From a virus (Duplodnaviria > Caudoviricetes): DNA of 64,000 bases. The stretch is from the IMG/VR virus record IMGVR_UViG_3300049172_000088, positions 19,686 to 83,685 of that record; one strand, written 5' to 3'. The position numbers and the translations under genes are program-made. Under the pieces are notes generated by a model. The model had not been told where the DNA came from and made no database searches. It saw nothing but the letters and a program-made list of their open reading frames with translations. Shown in pieces: positions 20,605 through 21,638 of this stretch. Position 1 is the stretch's first letter. Every line of letters begins with the position of its first letter.

Positions 20605-21638
20605 GCCTGCCATGACGGGCCATGCCGAGACGTGCGGAGCCGCAACAGGACGAACCGCGCCTGCCCTGCCAAACCCAGCCGTGCCTAGTCCCGCCGTGAC
20701 ATGCCGGACCGCACCACACCGAGCCATTCCTGCCACGCCAAGCGACGCCAAGACCCGCCCTGACAAGACGAGCCGTGCCGAGCCATGCCTGCCGTGCCGC
20801 GCGATGCTGTGACGGACCTAGACGGACCGCGCCAAGACCCGACTGCCGGGCCACGCCTTGACTAGCCGAGACCAGACCCGCCATGTCCTGCCTGCCGTGC
20901 CATGCGGAACCTAGCCGGGACACACCACAACAAGCCCCGCCTTGCCGCGCCTGACAAGCCGGGCCGCACCATGCGGAGCCGAGCGGAGACTTGCCACGCC
21001 ACACCGTGCCTGCCGGACCTGGCCATGACTGGCCGCGCCTCGCCGGACCTCGCCTCGCCACGCCTGCCGAACCACGCCGTGCCCGAACGTGACAAGCCCT
21101 GCACAGAACAACCGCGCCTGCCACGCCAAGCCACGCCAAGCCCGACCGGGACCTGACTGGACATGCCGCGCCATGCCATGACTGCCAAAGCTGGCCGTAC
21201 GGCGCCACGCCGTGACTAGCCCTGACCCGCCAAACCGGGCCTGCCGAACCGTGCGATGCCGAACCAAGCCCGGACACGCCCCGCCGAACCCCGCCTGCCA
21301 CGCGAAGCCATGACCAGCCGCGCCGCGACGAGCCCTGCGAAGCCATGCCTGCCAAGCCAGGCCACACCCTGCCTGGCCGAACCGCGACCTGCCACTCCGC
21401 GCCTGCCAAGACAAGCCAAGCCCCGCCGAGCCGAGACCCGCCGGACCGAACCACGCCTGCCATGACGGGCCAAGCCGTGACCTGCCGGGACTTGCCCAGC
21501 CTTGCCTGCCTCGCCATGCCTGAACTAGCCCAGCCCGAACATGCCCCACCCCGCCAGGACTGCCTCACCACACCAAGCGGAACCCCGCCGAGCCCGGCCA
21601 CATCTCGCCTGGACCGGCCAAGCCTGACCATGCCTGCC
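20605..21638 (-). ncRNA. GGY-NN periodic guide-RNA-like array: 18 units, 19 GGCAGGC-type delimiters
   Basis: Delimiters start at 20605, 20659, 20728, 20787, 20841, 20890, 20949, 21008, 21062, 21116, 21180, 21239, 21293, 21347, 21401, 21455, 21504, 21558, 21632; all spacings (49-74) equal 5n+4; units are a constant triplet plus a variable dinucleotide. Confidence 0.9.

What the first reader, a model, noticed from the sequence alone, without database searches (positions are those of the whole stretch)
20605..21557. Decoded array units spell motifs of rival phages' essential genes
Seen plus inference, using the same decoding. Unit 20890-20948 gives V(I/M)(D/E)YGTT(N/K)P(F/L)A, resembling the DYGTTNPF nuclease motif of PBSX-type terminases (this phage has a different terminase class). 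Unit 21180-21238 gives (K/N)WVATVYLP(N/K)G and unit 20659-20727 gives L(N/K)(H/Q)VYPVIG, both reminiscent of tyrosine integrases (this phage uses a serine integrase). Unit 21455-21503 gives IG(N/K)VLGF(Q/H)F, which resembles some capsid proteins. Others give VAIVGYGA(N/K)P and (K/N)(R/S)TLW(D/E)ALTA. I found no match of these units to resident genes. This suggests an inter-phage competition memory.
Basis: inference. Interest (0 to 1): 0.85.

Follow-up and report, generated by a model that had tools for sequence, protein, structure and literature searches.

The report
Actinophage VIPR guide-RNA array
The 1-kb five-letter-repeat tract is the guide-RNA array of a VIPR system, a phage RNA-guided gene silencer first described in 2026. 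At least two of its 18 guides spell, codon by codon, conserved motifs of other phages' DNA-packaging and capsid-maturation enzymes, so it is a real but already known kind of system.

Summary
On the minus (gene-sense) strand, 20598-21638 consists of about 214 units of the form G-(G/T)-(C/T)-N-N. One 4-nt unit, GGCA, breaks the run every 49-74 nt, giving 18 guide-like units of 9-14 pentamers.

This is a VIPR locus as described in bioRxiv 10.64898/2026.04.26.720920.
- The adjacent 211-aa protein is a homolog of the SUSP1 Vipr protein (PDB 36pp, profile E=8e-13). It has a Cas7-like fold and keeps the GGY-reading residues.
- A 140-aa accessory-like gene follows it.

Two units are confirmed well beyond chance.
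- **Unit 20893-20951:** reads V-I-D-Y-G-T-T-N-P-F-A in phage large-terminase genes. It has one exact hit in viral contigs. It also matches 12 of 401 host-order genomes at ≤2 mismatches, against 0 for the control.
- **Unit 20790-20843:** reads V-A-I-V-G-Y-G-A-N-P, with at least 120 exact in-phase hits in prohead serine protease genes.

The "tyrosine integrase" and "capsid" resemblances found no match. The phage does not target itself.

Verdict: a new member of a known kind. The scan has already noted VIPR-type loci on other DNA (238 notes in at least 198 genomes). RNA expression, processing and silencing were not tested here.

The parts
22036..22065 (-). Promoter-like site (TTGAAA-18-TAAACT) upstream of the cro-like gene. 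It is the candidate early promoter of the operon that carries the array.
   Evidence: This is a consensus match only (1 found against 0.2 expected).
21757..22029 (-). Cro-like Xre-family HTH gene, the first gene of the operon. A divergent cI-like HTH gene lies on the + strand at about 21880-22695.
   Evidence: Pfam HTH_31 E=8.5e-10. The + strand ORF has HTH_31 E=6e-8.
21640..21760 (-). Small zinc-ribbon ORF (W-x-C-x2-C-x10-C-x2-C). It is coupled to cro by a GTGA overlap, and its frame runs on into the array without a stop.
   Evidence: Pfam Zn_ribbon_RanBP E=0.0036, below the cut-off. Translation.
20598..21638 (-). vrRNA array of 18 guides with 9-14 G(G/T)(C/T)-NN pentamers each, separated only by a 4-nt GGCA unit (GGCAGGC on the sense strand, GCCTGCC on +). 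Triplet shares are GGC 54%, GTC 18%, GGT 15% and CGC 5%.
20893..20951 (-). Guide whose NN (+ strand GT AT GA TA GG AC AC AA CC TT GC) read V-[IM]-[DE]-Y-G-T-T-[NK]-P-[FL]-A. This is the motif at the start of the nuclease domain of large terminases.
20790..20843 (-). Guide whose NN (+ strand GT GC AT GT GG TA GG GC AA CC) read V-A-[IM]-V-G-Y-G-A-[NK]-P. This is a conserved motif of Caudovirus prohead serine proteases (Peptidase_S78).
19889..20524 (-). vipr gene, 211 aa. Its product is a small Cas7-like RAMP that should polymerise on the GGY-NN repeats.
   Evidence: Profile hit to PDB 36pp "SUSP1 Vipr protein", E=8e-13. Pairwise alignment. AlphaFold2 pLDDT 95.5. Foldseek top hits are Csm3/Cas7. 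phrog_4652.
19470..19892 (-). 140-aa gene coupled to vipr by a GTGA overlap. By position it is a candidate vap accessory gene.
   Evidence: phrog_15946 E=1.5e-32. It is syntenic in relatives. No Pfam or PDB match.
19407..19455 (-). Solo unit of nine pentamers plus GGCA, just after the 140-aa gene's stop. Most relatives carry their whole array at this position.
   Evidence: Sequence. Relatives.

Best explanation
This is a VIPR (Viral Interference Programmable Repeat) locus of a temperate actinophage.

**How it should work (inferred from the published system).**
1. The early operon (cro, zinc ribbon, array, vipr, 140-aa gene) is transcribed.
2. The transcript yields guide RNAs of 9-14 GGY-NN pentamers, each bounded by the GGCA unit.
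3. Vipr protomers bind one per pentamer. They hide the G-G/T-Y triplet and expose the NN pair.
4. The NN pairs bind double-stranded DNA that reads NN-x-NN-x, where the skipped base falls on the codon wobble position. This represses the bound gene.

**What is shown here.**
- The array anatomy.
- The homology of the protein to SUSP1 Vipr.
- Two guides spell, exactly and in codon phase, conserved motifs of other phages' large terminase and prohead protease.
- Prophages carrying those motifs sit in genomes of the likely host family and order.
- The phage's own genome has no such site.

**What is inferred.** Transcription, processing at GGCA, filament formation, and silencing of rival phages during infection or induction.
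For: **Vipr membership.**
- A profile of 84 homologs hits PDB 36pp_D "SUSP1 Vipr protein" at E=8e-13 over residues 21-199.
- The pairwise alignment places H36, R147 and E186-W187-R188 on SUSP1 H17, R138 and D177-W178-R179. Preprint 10.64898/2026.04.26.720927, section 5, gives these as the residues that read G1 and G2.
- The model has pLDDT 95.5. Its best PDB folds are Csm3/Cas7 at E about 2e-6.

**Array.**
- The 5-nt period is clear, and guides have 9-14 pentamers, within the published 9-16.
- All 12 viral relatives found through the protein carry same-sense pentamer arrays next to the gene.

**Not protein-coding.** Unit lengths are 4+5k and there are stops in the relatives.

**Targets.**
- The terminase guide has an exact hit in L017, in frame.
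- It also matches 12 of 401 host-order genomes at ≤2 mismatches. Eleven of these lie in ORFs with the same large-terminase sequence context, three of them confirmed by Pfam. The control gave 0.
- The protease guide has at least 120 exact hits. All 80 examined read HRGDVAIVGYGANPxT in S78 proteases.
- It also has 3 exact hits in 121 host-family genomes, with 0 for the control.
- Shuffled guides give 0 hits.

**Other support.**
- There is no self-target.
- A guide of the Nonomuraea prophage relative reads a conserved motif of a portal-sized ORF, in phase, in 19 loci.
- The published mechanism and target logic were read.
Against: - No RNA data exist for this locus. Expression, processing and boundaries of the guides are unknown.
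- Sixteen of the 18 guides have no identified target. Five of these were tested by exact scans, two of those also with mismatches allowed, and none gave a hit.
- About 26% of triplets are not GGY (mostly GTC, also CGC). Whether this Vipr accepts them is untested.
- The published type II 3' tail is absent.
- The terminase-motif and protease-motif phages appear to be different groups. The ten terminase-hit prophage regions lack the protease site.
- A match to a very conserved motif shows what a guide reads. It does not show that silencing happens.
- An earlier, similar claim in this scan was partly withdrawn on later checking (e1-5205340).
Confidence: 0.9

Rival explanations
1. The tract encodes a repeat protein. 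The 623-aa ORF 19889-21760 would fuse the zinc ribbon, a W/R/G-rich repeat region and the 211-aa domain.
For: - The frame is open across the whole tract.
- The commonest unit length in this window, 54 nt, is a multiple of 3.
- The homologous tract of Gordonia phage UmaThurman is annotated as protein gp40.
Against: - A GGC-NN repeat can give a stop only from NN=TA in one phase of three, so an open frame is cheap (my estimate is about 0.09).
- In relatives the unit lengths are 39-69 nt (4+5k) and are not multiples of 3.
- The L004 array has stops in all frames and starts right after a stop codon.
- Conservation has a 5-nt period, not a 3-nt one.
- The 211-aa gene has its own ribosome-binding site and ATG, and homologs are about 200-210 aa.
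- Pfam finds nothing in the repeat part.
Confidence: 0.02
2. The array is real, but the decoded "peptides" are chance resemblances. The NN pairs would be free spacers of a protein-binding or structural RNA or DNA repeat, such as a sponge or an origin element.
For: - Sixteen of 18 guides have no match.
- At the published 80% threshold, shuffled guides reach the same scores in only 0.4 Mb.
- The sense RNA folds somewhat better than shuffles, z = -2.9.
Against: - The exact 22/22 and 20/20 gapped matches have chance expectations of about 0.01-0.1 per scan.
- Every protease hit examined, and all terminase hits but one, lie in codon phase in a single gene family.
- Backwards and shuffled controls give 0.
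- The adjacent protein is a Vipr homolog.
- NN composition fits the reverse complement of codon positions 1-2 better than a uniform model, by +8.5 nats here and +21 in relatives.
Confidence: 0.05
3. The guides regulate the phage's own genes or host genes, for example lysis-lysogeny timing or host restriction, rather than rival phages.
For: - The array sits in the early operon beside the cI/cro switch.
- Other VIPR loci noted by this scan were read as aimed at host defence genes.
Against: - No site in the 83.7-kb genome scores above shuffles.
- Both identified targets are phage morphogenesis genes. In bacterial genomes they lie in terminase or protease ORFs of prophage type.
- Host-gene targets were not searched for the other 16 guides.
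Confidence: 0.08

Closest known systems
Type II VIPR of Escherichia phage SUSP1 and the Pseudomonas fulva prophage (bioRxiv 10.64898/2026.04.26.720920; structures in 10.64898/2026.04.26.720927; PDB 36pp)
   Same: - A small RAMP protein homologous to SUSP1 Vipr, with the G-reading residues conserved.
- A two-gene vipr plus accessory layout in a phage.
- Guides of 9-14 GGY-NN pentamers.
- NN pairs that read codon positions 1-2 of other phages' genes, with the wobble base skipped.
- No self-target.
   Different: - There is no invariable 3' tail or pseudoknot between guides.
- Eighteen guides are packed head to tail in 1 kb, where SUSP1 has 1+3 RNAs of about 100 nt.
- 18% of units are GTC.
- The host is a high-GC actinomycete.
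- The identified targets are terminase and prohead protease motifs, not satellite recombinase or prophage regulators.
"Staggered" vrRNA arrays (same preprint, fig. S18 legend: neighbouring vrRNAs overlap by 1 nt)
   Same: At each boundary the register slips by one base. GGCAGGC can be read as a last pentamer GGCAG sharing its final G with the next GGC. That is what a 1-nt overlap would look like.
   Different: I could read only the figure legend, not the figure or the tables. The VIPR type (I-VII) and the identity with that architecture are therefore inferred.
Class 1 CRISPR Cas7 backbone with crRNA (Csm3/Cmr4)
   Same: - The fold (Foldseek E about 2e-6, TM about 0.5).
- One protomer per repeat of the guide, with periodic unpaired bases.
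- An array of guides against mobile elements.
   Different: - The period is 5 nt with 3 hidden and 2 pairing bases, where CRISPR has 6 nt with 5 pairing.
- There are no repeat-spacer units, no cas1/cas2 and no nuclease.
- The system is carried by a phage.
Active-site-directed guide of SUSP1 against a satellite recombinase (bioRxiv 10.64898/2026.10.15.759431)
   Same: The guide footprint lies on codons of a conserved catalytic-core motif, so escape mutations would change the protein.
   Different: Here the motifs belong to morphogenesis enzymes of whole phage families, and nothing has been tested at the bench.

Membership tests
VIPR system | A Vipr protein: a small RAMP homologous to the characterised Vipr | tested here: met
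   - Profile against PDB 36pp_D "SUSP1 Vipr protein": E=8e-13, residues 21-199.
- Pairwise E=7e-5.
- The model matches Csm3/Cas7 folds.
VIPR system | Residues that read G1 and G2 of the GGY triplet (SUSP1 H17, R138, D177, W178, R179) | tested here: met
   Aligned residues are H36, R147, E186, W187 and R188. R147 and R188 are invariant in 84 homologs. Residue roles are taken from 10.64898/2026.04.26.720927, section 5.
VIPR system | vrRNA of 9-16 tandem GGY-NN (YNNGG) pentamers with conserved triplet and variable NN, next to vipr on the same strand | tested here: met
   - There are 18 units of 9-14 pentamers.
- 69% of triplets are GGY, 21% are GTY and 5% are CGC.
- The array is same-sense and adjacent in all 12 viral relatives.
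VIPR system | NN pairs match targets by the 1-nt skip rule, with the skip on the codon wobble position | tested here: met
   Met for two guides, with exact in-phase matches in terminase and S78 protease genes and controls at 0. No match was found for five other guides tested.
VIPR system | No self-targeting at ≥80% NN match above chance | tested here: met
   The best self-scores (14-19 matching bases per guide) equal those of shuffled guides.
VIPR system | vrRNAs are expressed, processed and co-purify with Vipr; the complex binds and represses target DNA | not testable with these tools
   There are no RNA or biochemical data for this metagenomic phage. I did not search sequencing runs.
Type II VIPR (SUSP1-like) | An invariable structured 3' tail (pseudoknot) after each repeat tract | tested here: not met
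   Guides are separated only by GGCA. Rfam finds nothing.
VIPR accessory genes (vap1-6) | The neighbouring gene belongs to one of the six vap families | not testable with these tools
   The 140-aa gene is syntenic (phrog_15946). The vap sequences and tables are not held, and there is no Pfam or PDB match.
CRISPR-Cas | A repeat-spacer array with cas1/cas2 or effector cas genes | tested here: not met
   The period is 5 nt, not 60-79 nt. No cas gene lies among the neighbouring ORFs scanned.

The most novel reading that the evidence does not exclude
The array may be a broad-spectrum panel. Several guides would be fixed on nearly invariant, escape-proof motifs of morphogenesis enzymes: the start of the large-terminase nuclease domain, the prohead protease, and a portal-like motif in a close relative. 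One temperate actinophage could then shut down whole families of co-resident or superinfecting phages, not one specific rival.

The NN composition also hints that most guides are antisense to coding strands. That would be a strand preference not reported for SUSP1.
Probability: 0.3. Interest if true: 0.6.

Novelty: new member of a known kind. Interest (0 to 1): 0.4.

Why it matters
VIPR was described only in 2026, and the experiments are on E. coli and Pseudomonas elements. This locus contributes four things.
- It shows the same system, with a dense tail-less array of 18 guides, in high-GC actinomycete phages. One of them is a cultured phage, Gordonia phage UmaThurman, where the array is annotated as protein gp40.
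- It adds two target classes that the preprints' main texts do not name: the large-terminase nuclease motif and the prohead protease motif.
- It offers a practical test system.
- It flags an annotation error: gene callers turn these arrays into "hypothetical proteins".

Tried and rejected
**Hypotheses considered before I found the preprint, and dropped.**
- A TRAP-like ring-binding RNA with 11 triplets per 54 nt. Unit length varies as 4+5k in relatives.
- G-quadruplex beads. About a fifth of units lack GG.
- An R-loop origin, a primase-site cluster, a centromere, and a Rho or antisense buffer. Nothing supports any of these.
- Rfam finds no family.

**Target searches that found nothing.**
- Exact scans of viral contigs for guides 21183-21241, 20662-20730, 21350-21403, 21458-21506 and 21011-21064.
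- Metagenome contigs for the first two of these.
- 201 host-order genomes at ≤2 mismatches for 21183-21241, and 151 at ≤3 for 20662-20730.
- All 18 guides against ten terminase-hit prophage regions, where only the terminase guide hit.
- All 18 guides against the relatives' VIPR neighbourhoods.
- The protease guide in five selected genomes.

**Weak or chance hits.**
- Guide 21065-21118 gave four 17/20 hits. Three are homologous sites and out of codon phase, so I treat them as chance.
- One terminase-guide hit (L026) lies in a DUF6879 protein, not a terminase.

**Limits.**
- The viral and metagenome scans accept only exact matches, so 80-95% matches there were invisible.
- The own phage's terminase and protease could not be classified. 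There is only a faint TerL_nuclease hint and no S78 hit.

Full report
**What is there.** Between 20598 and 21638 the window shows a 5-nt periodicity found nowhere else in its 64 kb. Identity at lag 5 is 0.49, against about 0.25 at neighbouring lags. On the minus strand, which is the sense of the surrounding genes, the tract parses into 194 pentamers G-(G/T)-(C/T)-N-N and 19 four-base units GGCA. The GGCA units produce the recurring GGCAGGC (GCCTGCC on +) and cut the tract into 18 units of 9-14 pentamers, 49-74 nt long, most often 54 nt. Triplet shares are GGC 54%, GTC 18%, GGT 15% and CGC 5%. GTC is favoured at the fifth unit.

**Context.** On the minus strand the order is as follows.
1. A promoter-like site at 22036-22065.
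2. A cro-like HTH gene at 21757-22029. A cI-like HTH gene diverges on the + strand.
3. A small zinc-ribbon ORF starting at 21760.
4. The array.
5. A 211-aa gene at 19889-20524 (phrog_4652).
6. A coupled 140-aa gene at 19470-19892 (phrog_15946).
7. One solo unit at 19407-19455.

The record is an 83.7-kb IMG/VR virus. Its closest relatives are prophages in Nonomuraea sp. and Thermoactinospora rubra.

**Not a protein.** A 623-aa ORF spans the tract. A GGC-NN repeat can make a stop only from NN=TA in one phase of three, so this means little. All 12 viral contigs found through the 211-aa protein carry same-sense pentamer arrays. There the unit lengths are 39-69 nt (4+5k). In L004 the array begins right after the 140-aa gene's stop, contains stops in every frame, and ends at a hairpin. 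Low-GC relatives use GGA-NN units but keep the GGCAG boundary. In Gordonia phage UmaThurman the tract is annotated as hypothetical protein gp40.

**What it is.** A literature search found bioRxiv 10.64898/2026.04.26.720920. It describes VIPR systems as follows.
- They consist of a small RAMP protein (Vipr), an accessory gene (vap) and vrRNAs of 9-16 GGY-NN pentamers.
- The NN pairs recognise double-stranded DNA with one base skipped between pairs. The skip usually falls on the codon wobble position.
- Natural targets are rival phages, satellites and prophages.

A companion preprint gives the filament structure and the residues that read the two G's.

The 211-aa protein is a member of this family.
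- A profile of 84 homologs hits PDB 36pp "SUSP1 Vipr protein" at E=8e-13.
- H36, R147 and E186-W187-R188 align with SUSP1 H17, R138 and D177-W178-R179.
- The AlphaFold2 model (pLDDT 95.5) matches Csm3/Cas7 best.

The published type II 3' tail is absent. The one-base slip at each GGCA boundary fits the legend of the preprint's "staggered arrays" with 1-nt overlaps, but I could not see the figure or tables.

The terminase unit, 20893-20951:
- The full 22-base gapped pattern has one exact match in the viral collection.
- The match is in frame at V-I-D-Y-G-T-T-N-P-F-A of an ORF with terminase Pfam hits, next to a portal gene.
- In 401 genomes of the order of the Nonomuraea host, 12 carry a match at ≤2 mismatches. 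The backwards control found none.
- Eleven of the 12 read G-[IV]-D-Y-G-T-x-N-P-F-A, directly after the ATPase domain of what look like large-terminase ORFs. Three of these ORFs were confirmed by Pfam. The twelfth is an unrelated protein.

The protease unit, 20790-20843:
- All 80 examined are in codon phase and read HRGDVAIVGYGANPxT. Two of these ORFs were put through Pfam and are Peptidase_S78 prohead proteases. The contigs have 57-76% G+C.
- Three of 121 host-family genomes carry exact copies, with 0 for the control.
- Shuffled guides give no hit in the same 1 Mb.

No guide matches the phage's own genome above shuffled controls.

**Further support.**
- A guide of the Nonomuraea prophage relative reads, in phase, the conserved motif SPVAYAAW[ST]IEESL of a portal-sized ORF in 19 loci.
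- That relative shares four guides with this array, with 1-3 changes each, and differs in the rest.
- The NN composition fits the reverse complement of codon positions 1-2 better than the forward reading, by +34 nats here and +104 in relatives. This may also reflect RNA-level constraints.

**Limits.**
- Expression, processing, Vipr binding and silencing are all inferred from the published system.
- Sixteen of the 18 guides have no known target.
- My collection scans could see only exact matches.
- At the published 80% threshold, chance hits are common in small databases.
- A similar "conserved-motif panel" claim made earlier in this scan was partly withdrawn on checking.
- The published main texts do not name terminase or protease targets. 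They do already state the principle of guides aimed at an active site.

**Verdict.** This is a genuine VIPR locus with two well-supported targets.

Noticed in passing
L016 3581-3951 (Gordonia phage UmaThurman NC_031249.1, gene 40): The annotated hypothetical protein gp40 coincides with a pentamer array of the same kind, directly after the Vipr homolog gp39. It is probably a mis-called ORF, in a cultured phage that could serve as a test system.
   Followed up: partly
window 19889-21760 (-): The zinc-ribbon ORF has no stop codon before the array and stays open through it into the vipr frame (623 aa). If the zinc ribbon is translated, ribosomes would run into the guide array. Its W-x-C-x2-C...C-x2-C pattern only weakly matches RanBP2 fingers (E=0.0036).
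   Followed up: partly
window 19407-19455 (-): A solo guide (NN cc gc ac aa gc tc gc gg gt, then GGCA) sits after the 140-aa gene, where most relatives keep their whole array. It lies inside the start of the next long ORF. In this phage and the Nonomuraea relative the main array lies upstream of vipr instead.
   Followed up: partly
window 20598-21638; The scaffold triplets depend on position within guides. GGT is common at unit 2, GTC at unit 5 (9 of 18) and CGC at the second-last unit. This suggests that guides share a common scaffold ancestry or that positions in the filament have different needs.
   Followed up: no
L011 6340-6730, L010 6150-7050, L013 4680-4960: Distant, lower-GC relatives (Vipr 37-41% identical) use GGA-NN or mixed units, but keep the GGCAG boundary (GGCAGT/GGCAGC).
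   Followed up: no
window 20525-20600 (-): Between the last guide and the vipr start there is an 8-bp inverted repeat (GGGTCCGG ... CCGGACCC) followed by a GAAAGG ribosome-binding site. It could be a processing or attenuating hairpin.
   Followed up: no
window 54848-55741 (-): An NAD-dependent epimerase/dehydratase gene (Pfam Epimerase, E=2e-32) lies among the phage's late genes.
   Followed up: no
window 58069-60003 (-): The major capsid ORF (Phage_capsid at residues 362-641) has a long N-terminal extension with a charged coiled-coil-like part and no S78 protease signal. The phage seems to lack the protease family that its own guide reads.
   Followed up: partly
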